Below, piece after piece: positions 1 through 53,323 of a DNA stretch of 57,756 nt (positions are counted from its first letter, which is position 1; the number at the start of each line of letters is the position of its first letter). The stretch comes from Escherichia phage vB_EcoS_PJ16. The translations under genes and the position numbers were made by a program. The notes under the pieces are model-generated. The model made no database searches. It was given only the letters and a program-made list of their open reading frames with translations, and was not told where the DNA came from. The stretch lies in sequence record OQ955832.1; one strand, given 5' to 3'.

Positions 1-206
1 TATCTTTTTATAGATAACATAGAAAACATAGATATAAAGAAGAAGTAGTATAGAAAGATAGAGATAGTACATATAGTGTATTAGCTGTAAATAGAGCTAA
101 AATAAAAGTCTGGGGGATACCTATTGTAATCTATGTTTTTATGCAAGTCTTTGAAATCATTGTGATTATGTGTTACGTATTTATGTATGTGATCGAAAAT
201 TAGTGC
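1..206. repeat. AT-rich non-coding repeat region (right half of hub A, continuing from the window end)
   Basis: No RBS-preceded ORF; short direct repeats (catagat, GCAYGTTGTG); positions 1-80 are homologous to 17749-17830. Confidence 0.6.
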
Positions 207-1493: not shown

Positions 1494-1540
1494 GTAATTT
1501 ACACTTCCCTGTGTAATCCGTCAAGAATTATTTTAAATTT
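1494..1540 (-). promoter_or_regulatory. sigma70-type promoter with UP element (conserved family)
   Basis: Minus strand: UP AT-tract, -35 TTGACG (1519-1524), 17-bp spacer, -10 TAAATT (1496-1501). Confidence 0.65.
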
Positions 1541-3768: not shown

Positions 3769-3815
3769 GAAGTCTATCTGATAATGTGTAAACCGTCAAG
3801 AATTATTTTAAACTG
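3769..3815 (-). promoter_or_regulatory. sigma70-type promoter with UP element (conserved family)
   Basis: -35 TTGACG (3794-3799), 17-bp spacer, -10 TAGACT (3771-3776), AT-rich UP element. Confidence 0.55.
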
Positions 3816-4741: not shown

Positions 4742-6505
4742 ATGAATAAGTTTACTGGAAATATTCATAATTACCCGCGCTGGCGTGATGCCTACGCAAA
4801 TGACGAACGTATCTGGCGAAAAGGTCAGCCACGACCAGATTACAAACAGTGTTACATTGACCGCATCAACCTGTTAAACCGTATGCGCACGGATCGGGCA
4901 ATTGTCCCGGTATTGAAAAAGTATTACGAAACAAACCCGGTAGCATTCATTCTCGACTGGGCGTTTACTTATGACCCGCGTAACGTCGGTACTGAGTACC
5001 CGCCTAACATGCCTTTCTGCCTTTTCGAACGTCAGATTGACATGGTTCAGTTTGTTTATGAAGCGCTTGAAGACAAAGAGAAAGGGCTTTGGGAAAAATC
5101 GCGAGACTATGGTGCGACCTGGGTAGCCTGTGGTTTGTCCGTGTGGGCGTGGCTGTATCGTCCCGGTTCTTCAGTTGGCTGGGGATCACGTAAAGAGCAG
5201 CTTGTTGATAAACTGGGCGACCCGGATAGTATTTTTGAAAAGATTCGCCAGATTATCCGCGCATTACCACCGGAATTACGTCCTGTTGGTCTGCGTGAAA
5301 AAGACCATCTGGTTTACATGAAATGTATCAACCCTGAAAACGGTGCAACAATTACTGGTGAAGCTGGCGATAACATCGGTCGTGGTGGTCGTAAATCTGT
5401 TTACTTTCTCGATGAAGCGGCACACGTAGATCGTCCTGAACTGATCGAAGCGTCGTTGTCAGCTAACACCAACGTCCGTATTGACATCAGTTCAGTTAAT
5501 GGCGTTGGTAACGTTTTTTATCGTAACCGTAAAGCGGGTCTGGAATGGGAACCGGGTAAGAAATTACCCCGTGGTAAATTGCGTGTCATGGTTCTGGACT
5601 GGCGTGATCACCCGGCTAAAGACGACGAATGGTATAAACGAGAAAAACAATCGTTCGCTGAAAAAGGTTTACAGCATATTTTTGCACAGGAAGTTGACCG
5701 CGATTATGCCGCTGCTGTTCAGGGTGTACTGATTAAAGCTGAATGGGTACGCGCTGCTTTTGACGCGTTCCGTGACACAGAATGGCGCAAAGCTAATGGA
5801 CTACTTACACCAACAGGTCAACGTATCGCCGGACAGGATGCCGCAGACGGTGGTGAAGACGCAAGCGCACTGGTAATTGCTCACGGTGTATTCCTGACAC
5901 ATCTGCAACTTGACCACAGGGGCGCTGAACTGGCTGCACCAGGAATGTTGACGATGGCTAATATGCTGGGTGTTGATGAATACTGGTACGAAGTTAACGG
6001 TGTTGGTACAGGCGTTAAAGTAGCGGCAAATGACCGAAAAGATACTTTACGCTTCCGTGTGCGTCCGTGGTTACCGAATGGAAAAGTTGTGGATCCGGGC
6101 GGTGATATTATCGGTGGTACGAAACCAGGTGACAAAGACCGTAAATCAAACAAAGATTATTTCTCAAATTATAAAGCACAGGCATCGTGGGCGTTACGCT
6201 TGCGTTGTCAGCGAATTTATAAATGGTATGTGGAAGGTCAACCACAGGATCCAGACGAAATCATTCTGATTGATCCATCACTGGAAAATGCACAACGGTT
6301 AGAAGCTGAGTTAAGCCAGCCAACGTATACCAGTAACGGTGCCGGGAAGATTGTGATCGACAAGAAACCAAACGGTAGTAAGTCACCAAACTTTTTCGAT
6401 GCTGCGGTTATTGCACTATCACCAAAACGTACCGAATTCGTTGAAGAACCGTTTACTGGCGGTGTGAATCCTGTTGGTACTCCTGAATACGGTGACATTT
6501 TTTAA
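4742..6505 (+). CDS. Terminase large subunit
   Basis: Track ORF 4667-6505, likely start ATG 4742; size and ATPase/nuclease-like organisation (DEAAH-like FLDEAAH) typical of TerL. Confidence 0.8.
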   Translation: MNKFTGNIHNYPRWRDAYANDERIWRKGQPRPDYKQCYIDRINLLNRMRTDRAIVPVLKKYYETNPVAFILDWAFTYDPRNVGTEYPPNMPFCLFERQIDMVQFVYEALEDKEKGLWEKSRDYGATWVACGLSVWAWLYRPGSSVGWGSRKEQLVDKLGDPDSIFEKIRQIIRALPPELRPVGLREKDHLVYMKCINPENGATITGEAGDNIGRGGRKSVYFLDEAAHVDRPELIEASLSANTNVRIDISSVNGVGNVFYRNRKAGLEWEPGKKLPRGKLRVMVLDWRDHPAKDDEWYKREKQSFAEKGLQHIFAQEVDRDYAAAVQGVLIKAEWVRAAFDAFRDTEWRKANGLLTPTGQRIAGQDAADGGEDASALVIAHGVFLTHLQLDHRGAELAAPGMLTMANMLGVDEYWYEVNGVGTGVKVAANDRKDTLRFRVRPWLPNGKVVDPGGDIIGGTKPGDKDRKSNKDYFSNYKAQASWALRLRCQRIYKWYVEGQPQDPDEIILIDPSLENAQRLEAELSQPTYTSNGAGKIVIDKKPNGSKSPNFFDAAVIALSPKRTEFVEEPFTGGVNPVGTPEYGDIF

Positions 6506-6511
6506 ACAGTG

Positions 6512-6545
6512 TGGCGGGATTATTCCCGCCCGTTTTCTTTTTAAT
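6512..6545 (+). terminator. Rho-independent terminator
   Basis: Stem ggcggga/cccgcc followed by T-rich tract. Confidence 0.65.
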
Positions 6546-6576
6546 TCTTGACAAATTACATTATAAATGTTTGTAA
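6535..6576 (+). promoter_or_regulatory. sigma70-type promoter (conserved family, -10 uncertain)
   Basis: TAATTCTTGACAAATTACA matches family consensus; -35 TTGACA 6548-6553; -10 position ambiguous. Confidence 0.45.
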
Positions 6577-6666
6577 ATTATCTGTTAGATTAATGTAACA
6601 CGTCTATACTCCTGCAGGTAACCAATCGGTTACAGTTAATTAACATTCTCTCACAGGAGTTTCAAC

Positions 6667-7365
6667 ATGTCTGACATGACTTTAGTTCCCACTGGCGGTT
6701 TCGGCGGTGAAGCTGGCGCGGCTGCACTTGGTGGTGGTATCGGCGGTCTTATCGGTTCCTGGTTCGGTAATGGCTGGGGTGGTGCCGGTGGTTGGGGTGG
6801 TCGTGGTATTGGTGCTGCTGAAGGTGTTGTTGTTCAGAACTCTCTGGATACTAACGCTATTCTTCAGGCTATTAATGCGGCGTCACTGGCTAACATTCAG
6901 GGTCAGAATGGTACTAACCTGACTGTTGAACGCTCAGCAGCTTCTACCTATAACGGTCTGACCCAACAAAACACACAAAACCTGCTGGCAAACGTTCAAG
7001 GTTTTGCAGGTCTGAACACTCAGATTCAGCAGGGTACTAACACGGTGACCAATGCGATCTGTGCGTCTGAAACTGCTGCACTGACTCGTTCTTTCCAGGC
7101 ACAGTTAGCGGCTGAGAAGTGTTGCTGTGAAACCAACCTGAATATCGAACGTCAGGCAGAAGCAACTCGTGCACTGATCCGTGATCAGTTCGCACAGTCT
7201 CAGGCTGTTCTGATTTGTGACCTGAAATCTCAGATTCAAACCCGTGACTTCCAGTTGTCTCAATTGTCACAAACGTCTCAGTTGGCGTGCAAAATTAACC
7301 AGGTCGATCAGCTTATTAACTTCAAGCTGCCTACTCCGCAAACTCCACCGACTGGCTGCTGCTAA
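6667..7365 (+). CDS. Glycine-rich protein with Cys clusters (unknown function)
   Basis: 232 aa; N-terminal GGxGG/GxxxG-rich tract, Q/N-rich middle, CCC and C-terminal GCC; good RBS AGGAG. Confidence 0.6.
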   Translation: MSDMTLVPTGGFGGEAGAAALGGGIGGLIGSWFGNGWGGAGGWGGRGIGAAEGVVVQNSLDTNAILQAINAASLANIQGQNGTNLTVERSAASTYNGLTQQNTQNLLANVQGFAGLNTQIQQGTNTVTNAICASETAALTRSFQAQLAAEKCCCETNLNIERQAEATRALIRDQFAQSQAVLICDLKSQIQTRDFQLSQLSQTSQLACKINQVDQLINFKLPTPQTPPTGCC

Positions 7366-7415
7366 TTGGTCAACTAAGCGCCTCTGTACGGGGCGCTTTA
7401 ACAGGAGATAAGAGT

Positions 7416-7775
7416 ATGCATTACAAACCGTATTACGTTATCAAAAAAGACGATGATGACGATGAAGAGGAAGATATAGAAATTCATCACCATCATCATT
7501 ATCACCACGGGCATCACCCGGACACGATGGGAGTATTTCATCATGATAGCTATGCTGGCGAACATGGTTCAGTTATGGCCCATGTTAAAGCACGTATGGA
7601 TAACCCTCCTTCGACTTGGGCGTCGTACCACGATAAGCCCGGCGGGATGATGTCCATTGTTGAAATGGAATATCGCGAACTGATGGAAGAAAAAACCGAA
7701 GGTTCGACGTCTGGTATTAAAAAAGAGCTAACGGATCTGGCTGCAGCCTGTATCCATGCACTTAAAAAGATGTAA
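7416..7775 (+). CDS. Acidic/His-rich protein (unknown function)
   Basis: 119 aa; DDDDDEEED followed by HHHHHYHHGHH; helical E-rich C-terminus. Confidence 0.6.
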   Translation: MHYKPYYVIKKDDDDDEEEDIEIHHHHHYHHGHHPDTMGVFHHDSYAGEHGSVMAHVKARMDNPPSTWASYHDKPGGMMSIVEMEYRELMEEKTEGSTSGIKKELTDLAAACIHALKKM

Positions 7776-7791
7776 CTAACAGGAAACCGAC

Positions 7792-8295
7792 ATGCAGAAT
7801 ATTAACGCAGGTATGGGTGTCACCCAGTTTAACGGTATGAAACCGCGAAGCACTATTAACATTGGTGGTGTGGAGTGGTCATTACGTCGGGATGCCACTG
7901 ACTCAACAACAATGTTTCCTCACCCGAAGGTAAGCTGGCTTAACGCTGGTTGTGAACCGATGGGTGATGGTCGTTTTCATTACTGTTGGATTTTGGGTGT
8001 AATTCCCCCGACACCGGGGACAATCGAACGACCTGTTAATGTGATGTATGTTGGTTTCCATCAATTTAAAATTAATATCGCACCTAATTCAATTAGTCAG
8101 GCTGATTTAGACAGGATGCATGTTTATGTCAGCGATACTTCTCATTTTGCTGGTGAATTTGTCAGTAAGTTTTTAGGTACAGAACCTGAACCTGTGGAAA
8201 CTCGTGAAAATATCAGCCCGTGGCCCCCGATGAATGATCCTCGTGAGCAACCAAAAGTAGCCAAAAATAAGGTAAACGAAGATGACGAAGAATGA
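7792..8295 (+). CDS. Hypothetical protein (167 aa)
   Basis: Track ORF with RBS. Confidence 0.55.
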   Translation: MQNINAGMGVTQFNGMKPRSTINIGGVEWSLRRDATDSTTMFPHPKVSWLNAGCEPMGDGRFHYCWILGVIPPTPGTIERPVNVMYVGFHQFKINIAPNSISQADLDRMHVYVSDTSHFAGEFVSKFLGTEPEPVETRENISPWPPMNDPREQPKVAKNKVNEDDEE

Positions 8296-8536
8296 AGGGG
8301 TAGACAAAGTAGTCGAAAGTCTGGGGTTACGCGCACACGTAATCGTAGACGAAGGTCACAGTCAAGAAGCGATCATGAAGTCGGCATTTAACGATTTTAA
8401 AGCGTTGGGTTCAATGAGTGGGATCATGGCAGTGATGACTACCGGGAAATTGAGCCAGCAACAGTTAGATCTGGCGCAACGTATCGCTGTGAAAGTAATT
8501 GCAGTTTTAGGTCTTAAAGAGTCAGAAAAAGCGTAA
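8282..8536 (+). CDS. Hypothetical protein (84 aa)
   Basis: Track ORF overlapping upstream gene end. Confidence 0.45.
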   Translation: MTKNEGVDKVVESLGLRAHVIVDEGHSQEAIMKSAFNDFKALGSMSGIMAVMTTGKLSQQQLDLAQRIAVKVIAVLGLKESEKA

Positions 8537-8549
8537 AAAGGGGGTTACT

Positions 8550-8714
8550 ATGTGTTGTAGAACATCGTGTTGTCTGGGAAGTCCTGCTACGCAATTTGGT
8601 CTTCTTCAGTCACAGATTGCACATACTCAGGCCGTTTTCAGAGGGTTTACCAGTCCGTTCATAGTACCATTACAGTTTTCCGCGTTCACGTTTAGACCTT
8701 TTGTATTTTACTGA
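8550..8714 (+). CDS. Cys-rich small peptide (54 aa, putative)
   Basis: Not in track; ATG 5 nt after AAGGGGG; begins MCCRTSCC; terminator follows. Confidence 0.3.
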   Translation: MCCRTSCCLGSPATQFGLLQSQIAHTQAVFRGFTSPFIVPLQFSAFTFRPFVFY

Positions 8715-8722
8715 TTGACTTT

Positions 8723-8748
8723 GCCCCGGAACTGTCCGGGGCTTTTTT
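8723..8748 (+). terminator. Rho-independent terminator
   Basis: Stem gccccgga/tccggggc then T6. Confidence 0.7.
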
Positions 8749-9023
8749 CAACGTCTGAAAGATGAAAGAACAGCGAGACTAACAGAACCTAAACCGAATA
8801 TGACGGCGTATGTTAGCTGATGTTGAAGTTTCACAAAACCGTAATAATCACTTTGTAATTCCACGATGTCAAAAGCAATTGAAAAACTGGTTACCAGCAA
8901 CATGATTGAAAGAACACGAATCAGAGCAACTGCTAACCCTATCACCCCTTGTTCTTTTTTCTCAGTTGTAATAACGACAACAATCATTAACAGAAGTGAA
9001 AAAGCAATGTACATATATTCCAT
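8748..9023 (-). CDS. Hypothetical membrane protein (91 aa)
   Basis: Track ORF; two hydrophobic helices. Confidence 0.5.
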   Translation of the reverse strand: MEYMYIAFSLLLMIVVVITTEKKEQGVIGLAVALIRVLSIMLLVTSFSIAFDIVELQSDYYGFVKLQHQLTYAVIFGLGSVSLAVLSSFRR

Positions 9024-9162
9024 AATGATTAGTCCCGATAAACTTCAGCACACCCGTAAATTTTACCAGGGTTGTAAGCCTGACACTGTTCGAACGTCAT
9101 GATACATTCTGTCACAGGTTCAATAGCCACACCATGCAGAACAAGCACTAGTACATAACCAA

Positions 9163-9492
9163 TTAACATTTTCTTAGAGTCTCCCGCCAGTTCAGCCCGT
9201 GTAGGTTTACTTTACATACAAGAATAAACGGAATATCAGGATCATACCACGAGCTACCGCTAATGTATGGGTCGTGTTCCCACGCGTAAACTTCACCATC
9301 AGCATCAGTAGTAATAACTGTATAGTTTTCTGGTATAGTTACTGACAATCCAAAATACATTACAGTTTTATAAAGATTCATTTTAACCAGTGTCATTTTA
9401 CAATCTGGTGCTTCTTCGTGGATATCCCACGATTTACCACAATGCGAACAATGATATTCATCATTACAGCGAATAGCGTTTACATGATTCAT
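9163..9492 (-). CDS. Hypothetical Cys-rich protein (109 aa)
   Basis: Track ORF; CxxC and HC pairs near N-terminus. Confidence 0.5.
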   Translation of the reverse strand: MNHVNAIRCNDEYHCSHCGKSWDIHEEAPDCKMTLVKMNLYKTVMYFGLSVTIPENYTVITTDADGEVYAWEHDPYISGSSWYDPDIPFILVCKVNLHGLNWRETLRKC

Positions 9493-9509
9493 GATTATTC
9501 TCCTGTTAT

Positions 9510-9710
9510 TCAGTTGACTAAGTAATAAATGTTATCACGGGCCAATTCATCAGCGTCTTCCTGACATTCGATTAAGGTGTTATCGTTACGCCATTCTTTA
9601 GCACATTCACGCGCTTGTTTACGACGTTTTTTCTTACTGTTACGAAGGTCTAAAAATATTTTTAATTCTTTATCATAAGCTCTTACCATACGTTTCATTG
9701 TACTTTTCAT
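9510..9710 (-). CDS. Hypothetical basic protein (66 aa)
   Basis: Track ORF. Confidence 0.45.
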   Translation of the reverse strand: MKSTMKRMVRAYDKELKIFLDLRNSKKKRRKQARECAKEWRNDNTLIECQEDADELARDNIYYLVN

Positions 9711-9713
9711 AAT

Positions 9714-9860
9714 TCAAAACCCCTTACTTTTAGCAATTTGTTGTGCACGTTTTTTAGTGTGACCAGCAGCAATTAAGCGTTTAATTTCGGCTTTACGGCG
9801 TACAAAGTGATCACTGCGTGAATTTTCAACCCACGACTGACTAATGTTTCTTGGATTCAT
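9714..9860 (-). CDS. Hypothetical small protein (48 aa), paralog of 10425-10625 C-terminus
   Basis: Not in track; shares about 35-nt repeat encoding KRLIAAGHTKKR; ATGA-coupled. Confidence 0.4.
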   Translation of the reverse strand: MNPRNISQSWVENSRSDHFVRRKAEIKRLIAAGHTKKRAQQIAKSKGF

Positions 9861-10195
9861 AATTCTATAGCCTTTGTCAGATATGAATGTTTCAGAACTT
9901 CACAAATTGTGTCATAATATTCAAATGTAACAGCAATAGTGTCAGCCGTTCGCTGATAGAAAAGAAAACCCTGATCATCCAATTGTTCAAGTATTTCAAT
10001 TTCTTCACTTGAACAATTACCGGAAATTATTTTCCCACCATTCAATACACAGTGAAGAATGAAAGGTAATAAACGTAACTCATGTTTGGTTAACTCGCGT
10101 TTAGTTTTAAACTGATATAATTGTTTCAGTTCATCGGTAACCATTCCACGGTGTTCTGGTTTTACTGGTATTAACATGTTCATCACTCCTTTCAT
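9857..10195 (-). CDS. Hypothetical protein (112 aa)
   Basis: Track ORF. Confidence 0.5.
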   Translation of the reverse strand: MKGVMNMLIPVKPEHRGMVTDELKQLYQFKTKRELTKHELRLLPFILHCVLNGGKIISGNCSSEEIEILEQLDDQGFLFYQRTADTIAVTFEYYDTICEVLKHSYLTKAIEL

Positions 10196-10424
10196 TTATA
10201 ATAAAGTTCTTTTTCAAGCCTGATGATTTGTTCTTTCAACCACGAAAGTTCTAAAAGAGTTTGTTTACCCCACGCCATCACTTCGGCATACCGTTTACAC
10301 TCATAACTGTGTTTTTTACGCTCGTAACAAGTAAGATGTCGCTGATGGCATGTGCTATTTAAAAGGTGAAACCTTATATTTACACTAACGCTGTTTTCAA
10401 TTAAATCATCATTTATGCAATCGT

Positions 10425-10625
10425 TTACATTGCGCCAGTCTTGTCGCGTTTTTTAGTGTGACCAGCAGCAATTAAGCGTTTTTCTACTTGGTCATTATAA
10501 GTTTTTAAAAGTTCGTCGCGCATTACTCGACATGTTTCACACGGGCATTTCATAACAGGTTCAGTACAAGCATTAGGATCTAATGACGCAATACCAAAAC
10601 CACTACCGTTGCCGTACATACTCAC
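10425..10625 (-). CDS. Hypothetical Cys-containing protein (66 aa)
   Basis: Track ORF; CPCETC motif; first gene after promoter at 10673. Confidence 0.45.
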   Translation of the reverse strand: MSMYGNGSGFGIASLDPNACTEPVMKCPCETCRVMRDELLKTYNDQVEKRLIAAGHTKKRDKTGAM

Positions 10626-10647
10626 TACTCCTGTTCAGTTGATGGTG

Positions 10648-10695
10648 AAAGCATAACTGCGTATCTGTAATCAGTCAAGAATTATTTTAACACCG
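10648..10695 (-). promoter_or_regulatory. sigma70-type promoter with UP element (conserved family)
   Basis: -35 TTGACT (10673-10678), -10 TATGCT-like, UP AATTATTTTAA. Confidence 0.5.
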
Positions 10696-10712
10696 TGCAA
10701 AAAAACCATCAC

Positions 10713-10721
10713 TGATATAAC
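10713..10721 (+). promoter_or_regulatory. Extended -10 element TGATATAAC (putative late promoter)
   Basis: TGnTATAAY without recognisable -35, about 40 nt upstream of portal start. Confidence 0.35.
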
Positions 10722-10760
10722 ATACGTTAAGAACCGTAAACCGTATGGAGCCTGTAGAAC

Positions 10761-12116
10761 ATGGCTGACCAACAATTCGAACAACTAGCCGTTGCCGGGT
10801 ACAGTCGAACAGGCAACCAGGTAAACGACGATTTTCTTCCTAAACTGAATGGTAAACAAGGCCGTCGTATTCTTCGTCAGATGGCTGAGAACGACGAAAC
10901 GATCGGTGGTGTACTGTTTGCTATGAGTAGCGTTTATCGTTCTGTACAGTGGATTTTTGACCCGTCTGACAAAGATGATCCAGAAGCTATCCGTTATTCA
11001 GAATGGTTACAGGATGCTATTGAAAATAAAATGGGTGATCCGCGTGGTGCACTCCCGGATGATACCTGGTCCGCGTTCGTTCAGACATGGACAGACGTTG
11101 ATGTATTCGGCTGGGGTTGGTATGACATCTGGGTCAAAGATCTTGATGACGGTACAGTGGGTATTGCCCGTCTGGTTCCTGTAGCACCTGAAACGCTTGC
11201 TGGCTGGGATATTGAAGAACCGACAGGTTATGTTCGTGGTATTTATCAATGTTCACCTAATCAGGGTACAACGACGTTAATCACACGTGACCGTTCGCTT
11301 CATTTGATTTCAAGTCCGAATAAAGGTAACCCGGAAGGTTTATCACTGCTGCGCACAGCTTATCGCCCGTGGTACTACAAAAAAGTGAATATGGAAATCG
11401 AATCCATACTTGCCGAACGTGGTACAGGGTTCCCGGTAATTACTGTCAACGCAGATATTAAGAAAGCGGCTAATGATCCTAATGTTCCTGAACAACAGCG
11501 TCAGGCAGCACAGGCGATGATTGATGACTATGAAAACATCGTCGCTAATATCAAACGCAATGAACAATCAGGACTGGTGATTTATTCTAAACCGTATATC
11601 ACGGGTTATGATAACGAAACAGGTGTTACTACGTACGGTGGTGAACAACAGGTGAAACTGGAATTCGTTACACCTAACCAGACCAGTTCTGTGGATATTG
11701 ACCGGACGATTAAACGCCTGGATACCAGTATTGCCCGTGCGTTACTGGCTGATTTTTTATTTTTTGGCAGTTCGGGTAATACAAGTAATGGTGCTAACCT
11801 GGGTAATCGTACTGAACTGTGGATCCGCGCAATGCAATCACGTATTGACAGCATTGTAGAATGTGTTAATCGTCAGTTGATACCGCAGTTATGGTCATTA
11901 AACGCATTTCCTGATGAATACCGCCCGTCGATTCGCGCCGGGTCGATCAGTAAAGACAGTATCGAGACGTTGACCACTGCACTTGCACGACTTGCACAAG
12001 CTGGTGCGCCTGTATTCCCGGATCCAGACCTTCAGGAATACGTGTATAAAGAGGCTGGTCTACCTATTACGGGGATTGATAAAGCCGGGGACGGATTACC
12101 GTCTATTGACGACTGA
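10761..12116 (+). CDS. Portal protein (putative)
   Basis: 451 aa; position and size between terminase and head morphogenesis gene; no motif confirmed. Confidence 0.5.
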   Translation: MADQQFEQLAVAGYSRTGNQVNDDFLPKLNGKQGRRILRQMAENDETIGGVLFAMSSVYRSVQWIFDPSDKDDPEAIRYSEWLQDAIENKMGDPRGALPDDTWSAFVQTWTDVDVFGWGWYDIWVKDLDDGTVGIARLVPVAPETLAGWDIEEPTGYVRGIYQCSPNQGTTTLITRDRSLHLISSPNKGNPEGLSLLRTAYRPWYYKKVNMEIESILAERGTGFPVITVNADIKKAANDPNVPEQQRQAAQAMIDDYENIVANIKRNEQSGLVIYSKPYITGYDNETGVTTYGGEQQVKLEFVTPNQTSSVDIDRTIKRLDTSIARALLADFLFFGSSGNTSNGANLGNRTELWIRAMQSRIDSIVECVNRQLIPQLWSLNAFPDEYRPSIRAGSISKDSIETLTTALARLAQAGAPVFPDPDLQEYVYKEAGLPITGIDKAGDGLPSIDD

Positions 12117-12869: not shown

Positions 12870-12916
12870 GTAGGTTACACATCCTTGTGCAATCCGTCAA
12901 GAATTATTTTAGATTA
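12870..12916 (-). promoter_or_regulatory. sigma70-type promoter with UP element (conserved family)
   Basis: -35 TTGACG (12895-12900), 17-bp spacer, -10 TAACCT; leader nearly identical to promoter at 27470. Confidence 0.55.
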
Positions 12917-14010: not shown

Positions 14011-14058
14011 AAATGTTAGTGTTACTGCTTGCAATGTGTCAAGAATTATTTTAAACTT
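14011..14058 (-). promoter_or_regulatory. sigma70-type promoter with UP element (conserved family)
   Basis: -35 TTGACA (14037-14042), 18-bp spacer, -10 TAACAT (14013-14018). Confidence 0.55.
14029..14057 (+). promoter_or_regulatory. Putative divergent plus-strand promoter overlapping the minus-strand element
   Basis: TTGCAA-17 bp-TAAACT on plus strand; same arrangement recurs at 44612. Confidence 0.35.
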
Positions 14059-17545: not shown

Positions 17546-17592
17546 ACAGGGTAGTTGTGTCGGTGTAATTTGTCAAGAATTATTTTAAAGAT
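17546..17592 (-). promoter_or_regulatory. sigma70-type promoter with UP element (conserved family), left arm of divergent pair
   Basis: -35 TTGACA (17571-17576), 17-bp spacer, TACCCT; inverted copy of promoter at 17898. Confidence 0.55.
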
Positions 17593-17880
17593 ACAGCTAA
17601 TACAGAACGTGTACTAACTGCACATATTTCTACATAGGTTTCATGATTTTGAGTTGCAGCTAATACAGAACGTGTATTAGTAGATCATAGATTCATAGAT
17701 TTCGTCATGTTTATTTTTTAACCAACCTCTCTCTATCTTATTCTTTTTATTATCTTTTTATAATAAAAAGATAATAAACATAATAAACATAGATAAATAG
17801 AAGAGTAGTATAAGTAGTATAAGTTGCTGCAAGTAGGAGAGGTTTAAAAGGTATAGGGAGTCGCATACTTCCCATGAATC
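17581..17880. repeat. AT-rich non-coding repeat hub B
   Basis: No ORFs; direct repeats cagctaatacagaacgtgta x2, catagat repeats; homologous to window-end/start region. Confidence 0.65.
17746..17778. repeat. Perfect palindrome (16-bp arms, 1-nt centre)
   Basis: tttttattatctttttat a ataaaaagataataaaa read directly; core TTATCT...AGATAA also present at window junction. Confidence 0.8.
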
Positions 17881-17928
17881 TATACGTAAAATAATTCTTG
17901 ACGGATTACACCGACACAAATACCCTGT
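17880..17928 (+). promoter_or_regulatory. sigma70-type promoter with UP element (conserved family), right arm of divergent pair
   Basis: TAAAATAATTCTTGACGGATTACACC; -35 17898-17903, TACCCT at 17921-17926. Confidence 0.55.
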
Positions 17929-26623: not shown

Positions 26624-27235
26624 TTAATGATAGACCTTGTGTACCTCTTGTTCCAGTTTATACGCGTCGGCGCCTTGTGGGAACGGATACGACACGAGTT
26701 TAACCACGGGGTGTGGAGTTCGTCGTTGTAGTTGTCGTAGTCGCTGTTTTAAGTCGTTTGTAATACCAACTTTAAGCAGAGTAGGACACTGTTTATCGTC
26801 AGTTAACACGTAGAGCGTTCCGTGTTCTGACGGGTTAAAACCTGTTTCAGCGCACTGGGGGCAACCTTGTTTCATTGAAGTGTGATTGTTCGGAGTCTGT
26901 TCAAACACACCGTGTTCTGAACAAATGATTTTCACAGGAGTACACCGATTAACATACTCCACCAACGAATAGTCGTAACGGTCCCCGTGAACTTCACGGG
27001 CGCGTGTAATAAACTCTTCTGTGGTTAAACGTTGTTGCTTAACTGCACATTGGGGACAACCTCTCCCGCGAACATGATTATTAGGAATCTGTTCAAACAC
27101 ACCATGTTCAGGACAGGTGATCTTCACAGGAGTACACCAATTCACATACACCACTAGCGAGTAATCGTATTTGTGCCCATGAACTTCACGGGCACGTGTG
27201 ATAAATTCTTCTGTGGTTAAACGTTTCCTACTCAT
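26624..27235 (-). CDS. T5orf172 (GIY-YIG-like) domain protein with duplicated zinc-ribbon domains
   Basis: Two tandem copies of EEFITRAREVHG-YDYS...GCPQCA; C-terminal GTLYVLTDD...KVGIT...EQEVH resembles T5orf172 domain. Confidence 0.55.
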   Translation of the reverse strand: MSRKRLTTEEFITRAREVHGHKYDYSLVVYVNWCTPVKITCPEHGVFEQIPNNHVRGRGCPQCAVKQQRLTTEEFITRAREVHGDRYDYSLVEYVNRCTPVKIICSEHGVFEQTPNNHTSMKQGCPQCAETGFNPSEHGTLYVLTDDKQCPTLLKVGITNDLKQRLRQLQRRTPHPVVKLVSYPFPQGADAYKLEQEVHKVYH

Positions 27236-27444: not shown

Positions 27445-27492
27445 GTAGGTTACACGTCTTTGTGTAATCCGTCAAGAATTATTTTAAACGTT
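27445..27492 (-). promoter_or_regulatory. sigma70-type promoter with UP element (conserved family)
   Basis: -35 TTGACG (27470-27475), 17-bp spacer, TAACCT; leader paralogous to 12895 promoter. Confidence 0.55.
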
Positions 27493-36063: not shown

Positions 36064-36387
36064 ATGTCTGATAACCCAGTGTTGAGGTATTGGCCTATAA
36101 TAGCATTTGTTGCCACGGGGTTGGTAGGTTACGGGGTAACTCAAAACCAAATCAATTCTAATGAAAAAGATATTGCAGATGCAAAAACCTATGCGCATGA
36201 GGCGCTTAATCTGGCAAAGCGAGTGGAATCCCGAGTGGATGTCCACGACATCAAAATCGAATATCAGGCAACACAGAACGCTGAAATCCTCACCAGTGTT
36301 AAAGAGCTAACACAGTCAACAAATGACCTGAAAGTTGTTATTGAAGGTTTGAAAGCGGAACAACGTAAAACCGGGAGTAAGCAATGA
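36064..36387 (+). CDS. Membrane protein with N-terminal TM helix and coiled coil (lysis-associated, putative)
   Basis: 107 aa; AGGAG RBS; first gene of lysis cassette. Confidence 0.5.
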   Translation: MSDNPVLRYWPIIAFVATGLVGYGVTQNQINSNEKDIADAKTYAHEALNLAKRVESRVDVHDIKIEYQATQNAEILTSVKELTQSTNDLKVVIEGLKAEQRKTGSKQ

Positions 36388-36773
36388 GTAACTTTAAATT
36401 CAGTCAGAGAAGTGAAAATAATCTGAAAGGGGTTAACCCGGATCTTGTGAAAATCGTGCGTCGGGCACTTCAGTTATCACCCGTTGATTTCGGTATCACA
36501 GAAGGTTTACGAACTGTTGAACGACAACGACAACTGGTTGCTGCAGGTAAAAGTCAGACGATGAACAGTCGCCATATTTCAGGCCATGCCGTGGATGTAT
36601 TCGCATATCCTACACCTGCTGGGTCGTGGGAATGGAAATACTATGAACAAATTGCCACTGCATTTAAACAGGCTGCAAAAGAACTGAACATCCCTGTTGA
36701 ATGGGGTGGTGACTGGAAAACCCTGAAAGATGGTCCACACTTCCAGTTACCACATGCAAAATATCCGGCGTGA
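36384..36773 (+). CDS. Endolysin, peptidase M15 family
   Basis: SRHISGHAVDV and DGPHFQL zinc-binding motifs. Confidence 0.8.
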   Translation: MSNFKFSQRSENNLKGVNPDLVKIVRRALQLSPVDFGITEGLRTVERQRQLVAAGKSQTMNSRHISGHAVDVFAYPTPAGSWEWKYYEQIATAFKQAAKELNIPVEWGGDWKTLKDGPHFQLPHAKYPA

Positions 36774-36783
36774 GATAACTGTC

Positions 36784-37014
36784 ATGGACAAGTTCAGCAT
36801 ATTACGTAACACAACCGGGGGGATTTCTTTAAGCCGCGCACAAGCGGCTTTAGGCTTCCTCGTGGTAACAGGCATTCTGATTTACCAGGCCGTGGATCGT
36901 ACACTTGATGATACAGTGCTGTTAACCTATTTCGGTTTCTGTATAGGTCAGTATGTTGGTGCTAAAAAAATCGCTGTAGATAAACAACGAGGTACGCCAA
37001 ATGACAACCCGTAG
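36784..37014 (+). CDS. Holin (putative, two TM helices)
   Basis: Track ORF 36730-37014 trimmed to ATG 36784; two hydrophobic helices. Confidence 0.45.
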   Translation: MDKFSILRNTTGGISLSRAQAALGFLVVTGILIYQAVDRTLDDTVLLTYFGFCIGQYVGAKKIAVDKQRGTPNDNP

Positions 37015-37399
37015 TGTGTTAATCACCGTTGTTGCAACCGTTCTTGTGTTAAGCATAGGTGCGTATACGTGTTACCACGCTGGGTATAAAGCACGGGTAA
37101 ATGAAGAACATCAGGAACGTTTAGACGATGCACAACGGGAACAACAACGGTTAAAGGCACAACAGGAACTGGCAGATGATGTACTTCGTGGTTTAGCTGA
37201 CTGGTCGCAGAATACTAAAATCGTGGAAATACGACATGAAAAGACTAATACTGTTTTTCGTAACGAGTGTCTTACTTCTGAATATCAACGCTTGTACAAC
37301 GAACGAGTTACCGAAGCAGAAGCCCGTTTATCAGGCCGCATTAGTTCAGAAGTGTCAGACCGAAAACCTTCCACGGCTGAACGGTCTGACAGGAAGTGA
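37001..37399 (+). CDS. i-spanin (Rz-like)
   Basis: N-terminal TM helix then charged coiled coil. Confidence 0.55.
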   Translation: MTTRSVLITVVATVLVLSIGAYTCYHAGYKARVNEEHQERLDDAQREQQRLKAQQELADDVLRGLADWSQNTKIVEIRHEKTNTVFRNECLTSEYQRLYNERVTEAEARLSGRISSEVSDRKPSTAERSDRK

Positions 37400-37484
37400 T
37401 TCAACAGATGTTAATGACCAGTGGTTAGATATTTATTTCAAATGTGCAACTATTCACAACGCATTAGTAGACAGTCTTCAGTAA
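37236..37484 (+). CDS. o-spanin (Rz1-like lipoprotein)
   Basis: Out-of-frame overlap with i-spanin; signal peptide with lipobox-like INAC. Confidence 0.5.
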   Translation: MKRLILFFVTSVLLLNINACTTNELPKQKPVYQAALVQKCQTENLPRLNGLTGSDSTDVNDQWLDIYFKCATIHNALVDSLQ

Positions 37485-41724: not shown

Positions 41725-42588
41725 TCAGTAACCGTTACCGTTGAGAAAATTAGGGGCCGGGGTGGTCATTACCATATAACCGTTAGCGATCAGTTGTTCA
41801 TCGTTCCAACCTTGCGCAATAAACTGTTCGTAAGTTGCACCACCTGCTTTTTCAGTCATTACCTTCACAGGCGCTGCTACAGGTGCTGCCGCTGGTGTAG
41901 GCGCTGCTACAGGTGCTGCCGCTGGTATAGGCGCTGCTACAGGTGCTGCCGCTGGTGTAGGCGCTGCTACAGGTGCTGCCGCTGGTGTTACGCCGATCGG
42001 ACGTGCACCTTCAGGCATTGCAGGTGCAGCACCGAACACAGAGGCCGGAGCCGGACCGGAAATGATTTCTTCACCTGCATAAAGCAATTGCGCCATTTCC
42101 ATATTGATATACACACCAGCCTGATTACCTGTACGACCGTTTGCAACAGATGACCCGCTGATACGGTAGTAATACCCTTTTTTCGCCAGATTTTTATCAA
42201 TAACTGGCTGGTACGCTGCGTTATAAACAGGACACGCGTCAATAGCCACGTTGCGTGAGAAACCAATAACCCAGTGACCAGCATAACCCGTTTTACTCGC
42301 ATGTTTCGGATCGTCACCGTTAATAATTTTCCATGCGAAAGTTGGTTGTTGTGGTTCGCCGTTCACATAGTGTGAGTTAGCCGCTCGCATGATCGCCTGG
42401 AATACCGTACCCAGTTCACCTTGTTCTTCCCACCAGTTCGCCGCTGTTTTAGGAAACGCCAGACCAACCCACCAGTTATGTTTTTCAGGTGCTAACGGTT
42501 TATTTTCGTGGTCATGAGTGTTGATGTCGAAAAAAGAACCGCCAACCAGACGACCAACCGGAGTTACAAAAGATTCTTTCTGTGCCAT
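41725..42588 (-). CDS. ssDNA-binding-like protein (DUF2815-like, putative) with Pro/Ala repeat linker
   Basis: N-terminal VTPVGRLVGGSFF pattern; four PTPAAAPVAA repeats; sits between nuclease and polymerase. Confidence 0.4.
   Translation of the reverse strand: MAQKESFVTPVGRLVGGSFFDINTHDHENKPLAPEKHNWWVGLAFPKTAANWWEEQGELGTVFQAIMRAANSHYVNGEPQQPTFAWKIINGDDPKHASKTGYAGHWVIGFSRNVAIDACPVYNAAYQPVIDKNLAKKGYYYRISGSSVANGRTGNQAGVYINMEMAQLLYAGEEIISGPAPASVFGAAPAMPEGARPIGVTPAAAPVAAPTPAAAPVAAPIPAAAPVAAPTPAAAPVAAPVKVMTEKAGGATYEQFIAQGWNDEQLIANGYMVMTTPAPNFLNGNGY
41871..41990 (-). repeat. 30-bp tandem repeat x4 (in-frame, Pro/Ala-rich)
   Basis: gcgctgctacaggtgctgccgctggtgtag repeated with 1-2 substitutions. Confidence 0.85.
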
Positions 42589-44531: not shown

Positions 44532-44578
44532 TAACTTTAAAAGGTGTTGTGTAATCTGTCAAGAATTATTTTACACTC
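44532..44578 (-). promoter_or_regulatory. sigma70-type promoter with UP element (conserved family)
   Basis: -35 TTGACA (44557-44562), 17-bp spacer, -10 TAAAGT (44534-44539). Confidence 0.6.
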
Positions 44579-50529: not shown

Positions 50530-50577
50530 GGACGTGTAAAATAATTCTTGACGAATTACAGATATGTGCGCTATAGT
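50530..50577 (+). promoter_or_regulatory. sigma70-type promoter with UP element (conserved family)
   Basis: TAAAATAATTCTTGACGAATTACA; -35 50548-50553, -10 TATAGT 50572-50577. Confidence 0.55.
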
Positions 50578-53312: not shown

Positions 53313-53323
53313 AGGAGAGTGAT

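What the first reader, a model, noticed from the sequence alone, without database searches (positions are those of the whole stretch)
6548..8748. Promoter-to-terminator cassette encoding Gly-rich, His-rich and Cys-rich proteins between terminase and portal
A self-contained unit has its own conserved promoter (6548) and terminator (8723-8748). It encodes a 232-aa protein with a GGxGG-rich N-terminus and CCC / C-terminal GCC motifs, a 119-aa protein with a DDDDDEEED then HHHHHYHHGHH tract, two unknowns, and a possible 54-aa peptide starting MCCRTSCC. The compositional bias suggests metal binding, membrane insertion or acylation. The placement inside the packaging/head region is atypical.
Basis: seen in the sequence. 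Interest (0 to 1): 0.6.

Follow-up and report, generated by a model that had tools for sequence, protein, structure and literature searches.

The report
Mobile phage accessory cassette, membrane protein
The region is a real, self-contained five-gene accessory cassette that moves between many unrelated virulent enterobacterial phages and is often lost in laboratory strains; its first gene encodes what looks like an abundant membrane-anchored helical protein of a large, uncharacterised phage family, and what the cassette does is still unknown.

Summary
Window 6548-8748 is an insulated transcription unit in a Sashavirus/9NA-like siphophage, and all five ORFs look real. It is not a quirk of this genome. 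The same ordered set, gp232 / gp119 / gp167 / gp84 (often plus orf54), recurs in six unrelated groups of virulent enterobacterial phages, at a different genome position in each.

- **gp232:** N-terminal glycine zipper (a true hydrophobic helix in Clostridia prophage homologues), about 160 residues of 11-residue helical repeats, an invariant CCC, and a Pro-rich Cys-ended tail. Its codon adaptation is second only to the major capsid protein.
- **gp119:** a marginally supported MazG-like (all-alpha NTP pyrophosphatase) core. The His tract is a lineage-specific add-on.
- **gp167:** a confidently modelled domain with no known fold relative.
- **orf54:** under purifying selection.

The cassette is repeatedly deleted or broken (9NA, SHIN8, Bas24, and probably Seurat; only remnants in a T5-like phage), so it is dispensable in culture.

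Best reading: a non-structural accessory operon acting at the cytoplasmic membrane, possibly for exclusion of competing phages or envelope protection. The function is inferred, not shown. Membrane association is supported. Metal binding is untested. I saw no acylation signal.

The parts
6513..6530 (+). Intrinsic terminator of the upstream terminase (TerL) gene. It insulates the cassette on its 5' side.
   Evidence: 7-bp stem, 6 GC pairs, T-rich tail; fold -14.7 kcal/mol; annotated as a terminator in AVIO78A.
6542..6579 (+). Cassette promoter. It is a perfect copy of the phage-wide UP/-35 motif TAATTCTTGACAAATTAC, with -35 TTGACA at 6548-6553. The -10 element is ambiguous: TGTAAA at 6572-6577 (18-nt spacer) or TAAATT at 6574-6579 (20-nt spacer).
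   Evidence: Conserved in AVIO78A, Bas82, Sasha, Solent and 9NA. Annotated as a promoter in AVIO78A.
6618..6633 (+). Perfect 16-nt palindrome GTAACCAATCGGTTAC in the roughly 90-nt leader. It could be an RNA hairpin or an operator; its role is unknown.
   Evidence: Only exact copy in the window. The stem is kept in relatives while the loop changes, and Solent and 9NA differ at one stem position, which would give a G-U pair in RNA.
6655..6659 (+). Shine-Dalgarno sequence AGGAG, 7 nt upstream of the gp232 ATG.
   Evidence: Read from the sequence. Conserved in all relatives.
6667..7365 (+). gp232. It has a conserved N-terminal peptide (MSDMTLxP) and a glycine-zipper, Gly/Trp-rich segment (about residues 10-50). 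Hendecad-repeat helix follows (about 60-220), with the QGFAGLN motif, an invariant CCC152-154 and C184. The tail is Pro-rich and ends in GCC.
7374..7400 (+). GC-rich hairpin followed by TTTAA, directly after gp232. It is probably a partial terminator or attenuator that would favour gp232 over the downstream genes.
   Evidence: Fold -17.0 kcal/mol. Annotated as a rho-independent terminator in AVIO78A and Sasha.
7416..7775 (+). gp119. The N-terminal part holds a variable acidic run and His tract. Residues about 49-119 form the conserved MazG-like core: PPxTW, E85xxE88, a 15-residue gap, then E104xxD107.
   Evidence: Homologues are annotated 'putative pyrophosphatase' in two BASEL phages.
7792..8295 (+). 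gp167. A beta-sheet plus helix domain (residues about 20-130) with invariant H44, C65, H90, D105 and H110, nearly invariant C54, and an acidic disordered tail. No known fold relative.
8282..8536 (+). gp84. A small protein of unknown function whose start overlaps the end of gp167 by 14 nt. It is the fourth conserved member of the module.
   Evidence: weak profile link to the fourth gene of distant cassettes.
8550..8714 (+). orf54. A real small gene with a conserved N-terminus, MC[CG]xxxCCLGSPATQxGxLQxQ, and an aromatic-rich C-terminus ending FVFY.
   Evidence: 16 synonymous versus 4 non-synonymous codon changes, with homologues in yong3 and SeppeHuegi. Annotated as a gene in 9NA, Solent and Bas82.
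8723..8748 (+). Intrinsic terminator that ends the cassette.
   Evidence: 8-bp stem, 7 GC pairs, T6; -18.4 kcal/mol.
8748..9023 (-). Convergent 91-aa membrane protein, annotated with 3 TMDs in Sasha and Solent. It belongs to the neighbouring minus-strand unit but travels with the cassette in Seuratvirus phages as well.

Best explanation
The region is a horizontally mobile, non-essential accessory operon (a 'moron'-type cassette) of virulent enterobacterial phages. It is not part of the virion.

It is transcribed from one copy of the phage's own sigma-70-type promoter family and ends at an intrinsic terminator. A hairpin after the first gene probably attenuates read-through, so that gp232 is made in large amounts.

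My reading of each product:
- **gp232** is anchored in the cytoplasmic membrane by its N-terminal glycine-zipper segment. It presents about 160 residues of 11-residue-repeat amphipathic helix, held together or metal-loaded through its invariant cysteines. The acidic N-tail and the Arg after the anchor suggest an N-out, C-in topology.
- **gp119** is a small MazG-type nucleotide pyrophosphohydrolase.
- **gp167, gp84 and orf54** are novel partners that co-travel with the first two.

The mechanism I commit to is that the module alters the membrane and the nucleotide state of the infected cell to protect the infection under natural conditions. The most likely specific role is exclusion of competing (superinfecting) phages, or buffering of envelope damage.

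What is shown: the anatomy, mobility, co-distribution, dispensability and codon signal. What is inferred: membrane localisation, enzyme activity and, above all, the biological role.
For: **Cassette anatomy.**

**Same ordered genes in unrelated lineages, at different genome positions.**
- Sashavirus: after TerL.
- Seuratvirus yong3 and SeppeHuegi: after the lateral tail fibre.
- Segzyvirus: after the capsid gene.
- Drexlerviridae damhaus: after a tail-fibre gene, between the primase and SSB genes.
- Yersinia YenM_22: a stand-alone plus-strand unit among minus-strand genes.
- IMG/VR contigs: gp232 homologue, then gp119 homologue (E 1e-8 to 1e-19), then a protein of about 175 aa, then one of about 77 aa.

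**Nearly identical distribution in the phage collection.** 178, 139 and 114 records for gp232, gp167 and gp119, with matching organism counts. The excess for gp232 is mainly Salmonella records, and the T5-like phage I examined holds only remnants.

**Recurrent loss.**
- 9NA has a roughly 1.06-kb deletion.
- Bas24 has an amber codon at Q80.
- SHIN8 has a deletion that fuses the tail-fibre gene to the end of gp232.
- Seurat appears to be missing most of gp167: only residues 114-167 match.
- The T5-like phage rokbiter holds only remnants.

**gp232 membrane anchor.**
- G22, G26 and G30 are invariant and G34 nearly invariant.
- Clostridia prophage homologues have a true hydrophobic helix there, for example WWAIIIFALIFGW.

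**Abundance signal.** The fraction of optimal codons is 0.727, second only to the major capsid protein at 0.742. The gene has a strong Shine-Dalgarno sequence and is followed by a hairpin.

**Helical repeats.** Hydrophobic periodicity is 3.6-3.67 residues, and sequence autocorrelation peaks at 11, 22, 33 and 44.

**MazG-like core of gp119.**, plus the independent annotation.

**Not needed for lysis.** Holin, endolysin, Rz and a candidate Rz1 lipoprotein ORF lie elsewhere in the window.

**No match to known structural proteins.**
Against: - No experiment or paper that I could reach addresses any of these proteins. The key 9NA-group paper was not available.
- Codon adaptation as high as the capsid protein's, and the frequent position just after tail-fibre genes, would also fit a virion component.
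- The enterobacterial anchor is only weakly hydrophobic (19-residue Kyte-Doolittle mean 1.14, below the usual cut-off of about 1.6 for a transmembrane helix). No Pfam glycine-zipper family was matched.
- The gp232 structure model has low confidence (pLDDT 57.6).
- The MazG assignment is statistically marginal (PDB E = 0.012 without the His tract; Pfam matches below threshold). The ExxD aspartate is His in distant homologues.
- The -10 element of the promoter is atypical.
- Nothing points directly to superinfection exclusion. No anti-phage defence family was matched.
Confidence: 0.35

Rival explanations
1. gp232 is a dispensable virion fibre or decoration protein. In this reading it is a cysteine-clamped, hendecad coiled-coil shaft with a Gly-rich tip, and gp167 and gp84 act as its assembly chaperones, comparable to accessory side fibres that laboratory phages readily lose.
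For: - Codon adaptation equals that of the capsid protein.
- The gene lies directly after lateral tail-fibre genes in Seuratvirus, Drexlerviridae, T5-like phages and a gut contig.
- The number of helical repeats varies between homologues.
- There is a weak PHROG match to a 'virion structural protein' family (E = 4.6e-4).
- Loss in laboratory strains is typical of accessory fibres.
Against: - Clostridia homologues carry a genuine hydrophobic membrane helix.
- In YenM_22 the cassette sits among early-type genes with no fibre gene nearby. Here it is insulated between TerL and portal.
- A MazG-like enzyme travels with it.
- The SHIN8 'tail fiber' annotation is a deletion fusion, not evidence of function.
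- No similarity to any known fibre, chaperone or decoration fold was found.
Confidence: 0.18
2. gp232 is a membrane-permeabilising effector: a glycine-zipper pore, or a fusogen-like or bacteriocin-like protein. Made late, it would tune lysis, collapse the membrane potential, or be released at lysis. The partner proteins would act as modulators or immunity factors.
For: - The glycine-zipper motif.
- The nearest, non-significant, PDB profile matches are the influenza B HA2 fusion peptide plus helix and the glycine-zipper lipoprotein SlyB (E about 0.1-0.6).
- High expression signal.
- Adjacent small conserved partner proteins.
Against: - The lysis set (holin, endolysin, Rz, candidate Rz1) is encoded elsewhere.
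- Homologues occur in prophages of Clostridia such as Lachnospiraceae and Oscillospiraceae. To my knowledge these hosts have no outer membrane to fuse with.
- The repeats are hendecads, not fusion-protein heptads.
- The PDB matches are not significant.
- No toxin or immunity family was matched.
Confidence: 0.12
3. The cassette handles metal or redox chemistry. His-rich gp119, Cys-rich gp232 and orf54, and the Cys/His residues of gp167 would bind or traffic Zn, Ni, Cu or Fe-S.
For: - Composition.
- CCC is invariant or nearly so, including in Clostridia homologues.
- C207 and the C-terminal CC are lost together in one clade.
- The ExxD aspartate of gp119 is replaced by His in distant homologues.
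- gp167 has invariant H44, C65, H90 and H110.
Against: - The His tract is missing from about half of the aligned gp119 homologues.
- No metal-binding family was matched above noise (ZrgA E = 3.7).
- The covarying cysteines fit disulfides equally well.
- No transporter or known metallochaperone is present in the cassette.
Confidence: 0.1
4. The genes are functionally unrelated small accessory genes that stay together only because they share one transcription unit and move as a block.
For: - Clostridia homologues of gp232 lack gp119 and gp167 partners.
- A gut contig has the gp232 and gp167 homologues adjacent, without a gp119 homologue.
- Partial deletions leave the remaining genes intact.
Against: - Gene order is kept down to about 35-50% protein identity across six or more phage lineages and in metagenomic contigs.
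- The distributions in the phage collection are almost the same.
Confidence: 0.12

Closest known systems
Phage 'morons': promoter-gene-terminator inserts between essential late genes, as first described in lambdoid phages (from my own knowledge)
   Same: It has its own promoter and terminator. It is inserted between conserved packaging and head genes. It is dispensable and sits at different places in different genomes.
   Different: It is a conserved five-gene operon rather than a single gene. It is carried by virulent phages and is absent from 5,426 complete E. coli genomes. Its promoter is a copy of the phage's own general promoter family.
MazG / all-alpha NTP pyrophosphohydrolase superfamily. 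The closest solved relative is Archaeoglobus AF_0060, PDB 2p06; its placement in that superfamily is from my memory.
   Same: gp119 has E85xxE88, a 15-residue gap, then E104xxD107, in two predicted helices. 2p06 is the top PDB profile hit both with and without the His tract (E = 4.4e-4 and 0.012). Weak Pfam MazG and PRA-PH matches occur in 4-6 of 21 homologues. BASEL annotators call the homologues 'putative pyrophosphatase'.
   Different: The core is only about 70 residues. All matches fall below curated thresholds. The Asp is replaced by His in distant homologues. This lineage adds an acidic run and a His tract.
Glycine-zipper membrane segments (GxxxGxxxG), as in SlyB/PCP-type lipoproteins, VacA and CdzC/D-type toxins (from my own knowledge)
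   Same: The G22xxxG26xxxG30xxxG34 register is conserved. The gp232 profile cross-matched the glycine-zipper repeats of a multihaem cytochrome and, weakly, SlyB.
   Different: No Pfam glycine-zipper family was matched. The segment is followed by a long hendecad helix and a Cys cluster, an architecture I do not know from described glycine-zipper proteins.
i-spanin Rz: an N-terminal transmembrane helix plus a periplasmic coiled coil with intermolecular disulfides (from my own knowledge)
   Same: N-terminal anchor, long helical region, conserved cysteines, and a Pro-rich end.
   Different: The phage already encodes an Rz-like protein and an overlapping candidate Rz1 lipoprotein ORF in its lysis cassette. 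No lipoprotein partner lies next to gp232. Homologues occur in Clostridia prophages, whose hosts, to my knowledge, have no outer membrane.
11-residue-repeat amphipathic helices such as apolipoproteins, perilipins and alpha-synuclein, and right-handed hendecad coiled coils (from my own knowledge)
   Same: Clear 11/22/33/44 sequence autocorrelation and 3.67-residue hydrophobic periodicity over about 160 residues.
   Different: The polar face is uncharged (Gln, Asn, Thr, Ser) rather than Lys/Glu. There is no sequence homology. The oligomeric state and any lipid binding are unknown.

Membership tests
Moron-type accessory cassette | Own promoter upstream of the insert | tested here: inconclusive
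   The UP/-35 motif is a perfect copy of the phage promoter family, and AVIO78A annotates a promoter here. However, the -10 element is off-consensus or at a 20-nt spacing, and the generic scan did not list the site.
Moron-type accessory cassette | Own intrinsic terminator downstream | tested here: met
   8723-8742 plus T6; -18.4 kcal/mol.
Moron-type accessory cassette | Dispensable, and variably present or positioned among related genomes | tested here: met
   Deleted or broken in 9NA, SHIN8 and Bas24, and probably Seurat. Found at different loci in Seuratvirus, Segzyvirus, Drexlerviridae and YenM phages.
MazG / all-alpha NTP pyrophosphohydrolase (gp119) | ExxE, 12-28 residues, ExxD metal-binding motif | tested here: met
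   E85xxE88, a 15-residue gap, then E104xxD107. E85, E88 and E104 are invariant and D107 nearly so among close homologues. D becomes H in three distant homologues.
MazG / all-alpha NTP pyrophosphohydrolase (gp119) | Significant profile match to the family | tested here: inconclusive
   Pfam MazG best E = 0.0018 and PRA-PH 0.0066, in 4-6 of 21 members and below curated thresholds. PDB 2p06 E = 4.4e-4 with the His tract, partly driven by the His tag of the deposited chain, and 0.012 without it.
MazG / all-alpha NTP pyrophosphohydrolase (gp119) | Four-helix-bundle dimer fold and nucleotide pyrophosphatase activity | not tested
Activity needs biochemistry.
Glycine-zipper membrane protein (gp232) | (G/A/S)xxxGxxxG register in a hydrophobic segment | tested here: met
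   G22, G26 and G30 invariant and G34 nearly invariant.
Glycine-zipper membrane protein (gp232) | Match to curated glycine-zipper families, or hydrophobicity of transmembrane grade | tested here: inconclusive
   No Pfam glycine-zipper match at E up to 1. The 19-residue Kyte-Doolittle maximum is 1.14. Clostridia homologues do have a clear hydrophobic helix at the same place.
i-spanin / spanin system | Adjacent or embedded outer-membrane lipoprotein partner, located in the lysis cassette | tested here: not met
   No lipoprotein ORF lies in or next to gp232. An Rz-like protein and an overlapping candidate Rz1 lipoprotein ORF are at 37001-37484, next to holin and endolysin. Homologues occur in Clostridia prophages.
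Class I viral fusion protein (HA2-like) | N-terminal fusion peptide followed by heptad-repeat coiled coil; significant similarity | tested here: not met
   HA2 is the top PDB profile match but at E about 0.1. Periodicity is 11 residues, not 7.
Ordinary virion structural protein (head fibre, decoration, tail fibre) | Homology to a known structural family, or presence in the virion | tested here: inconclusive
   The only link is a weak partial PHROG match (phrog_15175, E = 4.6e-4). There was no Pfam, NCBIfam or PDB match. Virion proteomics could not be checked.
His-rich metallochaperone tail (HypB/SlyD/UreE-like) | His-rich tract conserved across orthologues | tested here: not met
   The tract is present here, but runs of five or more His are found in only about half of the 21 aligned homologues. 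Only 15 of 114 phage records cover 80% or more of gp119, so its N-terminal part is not generally conserved.
Bacterial lipoprotein / acylated protein | N-terminal signal peptide with a lipobox [LVI][ASTVI][GAS]C | tested here: not met
   By inspection of the translations, neither gp232 nor orf54 shows such a signal. The cysteines of gp232 are internal or C-terminal. No prediction tool was run.
Known anti-phage defence or counter-defence protein families | Match to a PADLOC model | tested here: not met
   Only noise-level matches (E at least 0.011) for gp84 and the neighbouring 91-aa protein.

The most novel reading that the evidence does not exclude
gp232 would found a previously unrecognised, ancient family of phage membrane proteins. 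Its architecture is a fusion-peptide-like or glycine-zipper anchor, hendecad amphipathic repeats, an invariant CCC and a Cys-rich tail. The family is shared by virulent enterobacterial phages and by Clostridia prophages.

In enterobacterial phages it would work with a MazG-like enzyme and two novel proteins as a four-component system. That system would remodel or shield the cytoplasmic membrane of the infected cell, either to exclude rival phages or to neutralise membrane-targeting abortive-infection defences.
Probability: 0.15. Interest if true: 0.75.

Novelty: new variant of a known kind. Interest (0 to 1): 0.5.

Why it matters
The cassette is present in well over a hundred sequenced phages of E. 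coli, Salmonella, Shigella, Yersinia, Klebsiella and Edwardsiella. These include therapy and biocontrol candidates and BASEL reference phages. Every one of its genes that I saw annotated is 'hypothetical', apart from two 'putative pyrophosphatase' calls.

Its first gene carries the codon signature of one of the most strongly expressed proteins of the phage. Even so, several studied or laboratory-isolated phages (9NA, SHIN8, Bas24, probably Seurat) have lost or broken it. That would help explain why its role has never been noticed in standard laboratory assays.

Natural variants already exist that could serve as comparisons: Bas82 intact, Bas24 with an amber codon, and 9NA with a deletion. The function is therefore directly testable.

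If the module acts in phage-phage competition or envelope protection, it would matter for the design of phage cocktails and for understanding accessory gene flow among virulent phages.

Tried and rejected
**Family, sequence and fold searches that gave no function**
- Pfam, NCBIfam, PADLOC and PDB sequence searches with the single proteins gave nothing usable. PHROGs gave only families of unknown function.
- The gp232 model was too poor (pLDDT 57.6, one long helix) to justify a fold search.
- Rfam found no RNA family in 6300-10900, so the orf54 region is not a known sRNA.

**Hypotheses rejected**
- gp232 as a spanin: rejected.
- The 'tail fiber protein' label on a gp232-like piece in SHIN8 is a deletion fusion.
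- The 208-217-aa protein downstream of the Clostridia homologues is not related to gp119 (hhalign negative).
- I considered a MerR-type regulated promoter, because of the 20-nt spacing and a small dyad in the spacer. I dropped the idea because such AT-rich dyads are easily chance, and the dyad is not conserved in Solent or 9NA.

**Searches that failed or were blocked**
A single distant protein worked.
- The cassette DNA has no match in complete E. coli genomes.
- Literature searches found nothing on these proteins. The J Virol 2019 paper on 9NA-like phages is not held.

Full report
**Context.** The window is a 9NA-like siphophage of the Sashavirus/Nonanavirus group. The region is 99% identical to Sashavirus BDX09P1, 98% to Escherichia phage KarinMuster (Bas82) and 97% to AVIO78A. 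It is about 86% identical to Salmonella phages Sasha, Sergei and Solent. In every annotated relative the genes of this region are 'hypothetical protein'.

**Checking the observation.** The ORFs are exactly as described: gp232 6667-7365, gp119 7416-7775, gp167 7792-8295, gp84 8282-8536 and orf54 8550-8714.

The TTGACA at 6548 lies inside a perfect copy (6542-6559) of an 18-nt motif, TAATTCTTGACRRRTTRC.
- Twelve sites in the window match this motif with 0-1 mismatch.
- At up to 3 mismatches there are 17 sites against 2.35 expected by chance, and none of 100 shuffles reached 17.
- The copies sit in front of transcription units on both strands, so 'conserved promoter' is correct.

There is one caveat about the -10 element.
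- The other copies carry a TAnnnT hexamer at about 17 nt.
- This copy has TTGTAA at 17 nt, TGTAAA at 18 nt and TAAATT only at 20 nt.
- The generic sigma-70 scan did not list it.
- The AVIO78A depositors do annotate a promoter here.

The terminator at 8723-8742 plus T6 is clear (-18.4 kcal/mol). TerL has its own terminator at 6513-6530, so the unit is insulated on both sides. A -17 kcal/mol hairpin directly after gp232 is annotated as a terminator in AVIO78A and Sasha. It probably attenuates read-through into the downstream genes.

orf54 is a real gene.
- Against Sasha, 9NA and Solent it shows 16 synonymous and 4 non-synonymous codon differences.
- Two Seuratvirus phages (yong3, SeppeHuegi) encode a protein with the same N-terminus, MC[CG]xxxCCLGSPATQxGxLQxQ.
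- No Rfam family matches the region.

**The cassette is a conserved, mobile module.** The same genes in the same order occur in unrelated phages, at different genome positions.
- After the lateral tail fibre in Seuratvirus yong3 and SeppeHuegi.
- After the major capsid gene in Segz_1.
- After a tail-fibre gene, between the primase and SSB genes, in the Drexlerviridae phage damhaus.
- As a stand-alone plus-strand unit among minus-strand genes in Yersinia phage vB_YenM_22.

HMM scans of 90 or more fetched loci confirmed the order gp232, gp119, gp167, gp84 (often orf54) wherever the close family occurs. In metagenomic viral contigs that are only about 35-50% identical, the order is kept as well:
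- a gp232 homologue;
- a gp119 homologue (E 1e-8 to 1e-19);
- a protein of about 175 aa, weakly related to gp167 (hhalign E 3e-3);
- a protein of about 77 aa, weakly related to gp84 (hhalign E 3.5e-3).

In a gut phage contig the gp232 homologue is followed directly by a gp167 homologue (hhalign probability 94%).

In the phage collection the three larger proteins hit 178, 139 and 114 records. The organism breakdowns almost coincide. The excess for gp232 is mainly Salmonella records, and in the T5-like phage I examined (rokbiter) only remnants of the gene are left. The cassette DNA has no match in 5,426 complete E. coli genomes. Among the enterobacterial records I found, it is therefore carried by phage genomes rather than by host chromosomes.

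**The cassette is dispensable and often lost.**
- **9NA** carries a deletion of about 1.06 kb (window ~6803-7863). It leaves the promoter and a 62-aa gp12 (the first 45 residues of gp232 fused out of frame), plus a truncated gp167, which is annotated as gp13.
- **SeppeHuegi (Bas24)** has an in-frame amber codon at the position of Q80.
- **SHIN8** has a deletion that fuses the start of the lateral tail fibre to the last 72 residues of gp232. This explains its 'tail fiber protein' label.
- **Seurat** keeps only the end of gp167: residues 114-167 match.
- **The T5-like phage rokbiter** holds a truncated, frameshifted copy.
- **A database protein (P0161)** matches both the gp232 profile and the C-terminal part of gp167, and may be another deletion fusion.

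This is the pattern of an accessory function that pays off in nature but not in laboratory culture.

**gp232.** An HMMER profile search of 1.84 billion cluster representatives found 128 relatives, 47 of them at E of 1e-10 or better, mostly 200-290 aa long. The shared features are:
- a short acidic N-terminal peptide (MxDMxLxP);
- a Gly-rich segment with a glycine-zipper register: G22, G26 and G30 invariant and G34 nearly invariant among close relatives;
- a Gly/Trp/Arg linker;
- a variable number of repeats carrying QGF(A/S)GLN;
- an invariant or nearly invariant CCC;
- a conserved helix (ATRxLI...LCDxK...L..Q...SQxAQT);
- a Pro/Thr-rich tail that usually ends in GCC or GCCGC.

C207 and the C-terminal CC are lost together in one clade. 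That suggests they form one disulfide or one metal site.

A more distant branch (phrog_16490) occurs in genomes of Lachnospiraceae, Oscillospiraceae, Ruminococcus and Eubacterium. The neighbouring integrase, holin and tail-fibre-like genes suggest these copies lie in prophages. This branch keeps the QGFNG motif, the CCC, the AGTRAILDYLC helix, a Pro-rich linker and a Cys-rich end such as GCGCNTGCGC. In place of the glycine zipper it has an unmistakable hydrophobic helix, for example WWAIIIFALIFGW. This is the best evidence that the N-terminal segment is a membrane anchor. On its own the enterobacterial version is only weakly hydrophobic (Kyte-Doolittle 1.14 over 19 residues).

AlphaFold gave a low-confidence model (pLDDT 57.6) with one long helix over residues 62-220; confidence is higher (76-85) around residues 160-210.
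- The family-averaged hydrophobicity has a period of 3.6-3.67 residues, not 3.5.
- Sequence autocorrelation peaks at offsets 11, 22, 33 and 44.
- The helix is therefore built of hendecads. To my knowledge this is typical either of membrane-surface amphipathic helices or of right-handed coiled coils.

The fraction of E. coli optimal codons in gp232 is 0.727. That is second in the window only to the major capsid protein (0.742) and well above the other cassette genes, at 0.36-0.53. With the strong AGGAG site and the downstream hairpin, this points to an abundant product.

The best PDB profile matches are not significant. They are nonetheless suggestive of the type: the influenza B HA2 fusion peptide plus helix (E about 0.1) and the glycine-zipper lipoprotein SlyB.

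**gp119.** Only the C-terminal 70 or so residues are conserved (PPxTW...IVEMEYxELM...KELTDLAAAC).
- The acidic run and the His tract are missing from about half of the aligned homologues.
- Only 15 of 114 phage records cover 80% or more of the protein, so its N-terminal part is not generally conserved.
- The core carries E85xxE88, a 15-residue gap, then E104xxD107. As I know it, this is the MazG signature.
- A family profile hits PDB 2p06 (AF_0060) as top match, with the His tract (E = 4.4e-4, partly driven by the His tag of the deposited chain) and without it (E = 0.012).
- Four to six of 21 members give sub-threshold Pfam MazG or PRA-PH matches.
- BASEL annotators independently call the homologues 'putative pyrophosphatase'.
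- In three distant homologues the Asp is His.

I therefore file gp119 as 'MazG-like, marginal support', not as a proven member of the family.

**gp167, gp84 and orf54.**
- **gp84:** it has no informative match.
- **orf54:** it has a Cys-rich N-terminus and an aromatic-rich end (FVFY or FVFW).

**What it is not.** Lysis functions are encoded elsewhere in the window: holin at 36064, endolysin at 36384, an Rz-like protein at 37001 and an overlapping candidate Rz1 lipoprotein ORF at 37236. gp232 homologues also occur in Clostridia prophages, whose hosts, to my knowledge, have no outer membrane. For both reasons gp232 is not a spanin. No defence or counter-defence model matched. I could not see a lipobox or signal peptide that would support acylation; this was judged by eye.

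**Most likely mechanism.**
- **Shown:** an insulated, mobile, co-inherited, dispensable operon whose first gene bears the marks of high expression.
- **Inferred with moderate confidence (about 0.6-0.7):** gp232 is anchored in the cytoplasmic membrane by its N-terminal segment.
- **Inferred with lower confidence:** the acidic N-tail and the conserved Arg after the anchor suggest an N-out, C-in topology. In that case the hendecad helix and the cysteines lie on the cytoplasmic face.
- **Inferred (about 0.6):** gp119 is a nucleotide pyrophosphohydrolase.
- **Speculative (about 0.2-0.25 for the specific role):** the module protects the infected cell in natural settings, for example by excluding competing phages or by stabilising the membrane against envelope-directed damage.

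The main rival is that gp232 is a dispensable virion fibre or decoration (about 0.18). That reading fits the codon signal and the frequent position after tail-fibre genes. It fits poorly with the hydrophobic anchor in distant homologues, with the enzyme partner, and with the stand-alone location in YenM phages. Other rivals are a pore or fusogen-like effector, a metal or redox module, and mere hitch-hiking of unrelated genes.

**Novelty and verdict.** No paper I could reach describes any of these proteins. The 2019 J Virol paper on 9NA-like phages, which reports virion proteins, was not available. The cassette belongs to a known kind, phage accessory or 'moron' units. It is an unusual variant: a conserved multi-gene operon in virulent phages, led by a large uncharacterised membrane-protein family with an unusual architecture. 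Interest is moderate. It is not a surprise to a specialist, but it is a well-defined, widespread and immediately testable unknown.

Noticed in passing
window 1513-1530, 3788-3805, 10667-10684, 12889-12906, 14031-14048, 17565-17582, 17892-17909, 27464-27481, 44551-44568, 44614-44631, 50542-50559, 52300-52317: A phage-wide promoter family (tTAAAATAATTC TTGACR rATTACA, about 11 nt, then TAnnnT) drives units on both strands. It includes the divergent pair at 17565(-) and 17892(+), just upstream of the block that holds the head genes. The whole genome appears to use one promoter type.
   Followed up: partly
window 9748-9782 and 10447-10481: A 35-nt exact direct repeat lies inside two small minus-strand ORFs (9714-9860 and 10425-10625). 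Both encode the motif RLIAAGHTKKR, so this is a duplicated peptide module in the neighbouring minus-strand unit.
   Followed up: no
window 60-88, 17593-17621, 17656-17684, 50477-50505: Repeated 29-33-nt elements (ACAGCTAATACAGAACGTGTAYTA). Those at 17593 and 17656 lie between the divergent promoters at 17565 and 17892. They could be operators or iterons.
   Followed up: no
window 41839-42016 and 56801-56900: Tandem 12-, 18- and 21-nt repeat arrays inside minus-strand ORFs (41725-42588 and 56672-57475), which would encode low-complexity peptide repeats.
   Followed up: no
window 53272-53331 and 53471-53530: A 60-nt repeat at 95% identity, ending in a ribosome-binding site and an ATG. Two neighbouring small genes therefore share the same leader and start, which looks like a local duplication.
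   Followed up: no
window 26883-27033 and 27075-27225: A 151-nt direct repeat at 84% identity within the minus-strand ORF 26624-27235.
   Followed up: no
L003 3122-4672 (Salmonella phage Sasha): Sasha has an extra 516-aa minus-strand gene between TerL and the cassette. RefSeq lists a 'homing endonuclease' in this region. This boundary is therefore an insertion hotspot.
   Followed up: no
L023-L092 and L095-L123 (Clostridia phage and prophage loci), e.g. L035 5067-8293: In Clostridia prophages the gp232-like gene sits in a different conserved block. The block holds a protein of about 160 aa rich in Gln, Pro and Tyr; small proteins of about 79 and 73 aa; a protein of 125-145 aa, some copies of which start with a Cys-rich N-terminus (MxCKNVCKLCD...); a protein of about 210 aa; and an ImmA/IrrE-like peptidase. 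It lies near the serine recombinase or after the holin. No member has a known function.
   Followed up: partly
window 8550-8714 (orf54): The C-terminus ends in alternating aromatic residues (FTFRPFVFY; FVFW in Sasha and 9NA). This resembles the C-terminal signature of outer-membrane beta-barrel proteins, but there is no signal peptide. The resemblance is from memory only.
   Followed up: no
window 36064-37484: A lysis cassette: holin (36064), endolysin (36384), a 94-aa ORF (36730-37014) whose product looks membrane-associated, an Rz-like i-spanin (37001) and an overlapping candidate Rz1 lipoprotein ORF (37236).
   Followed up: partly
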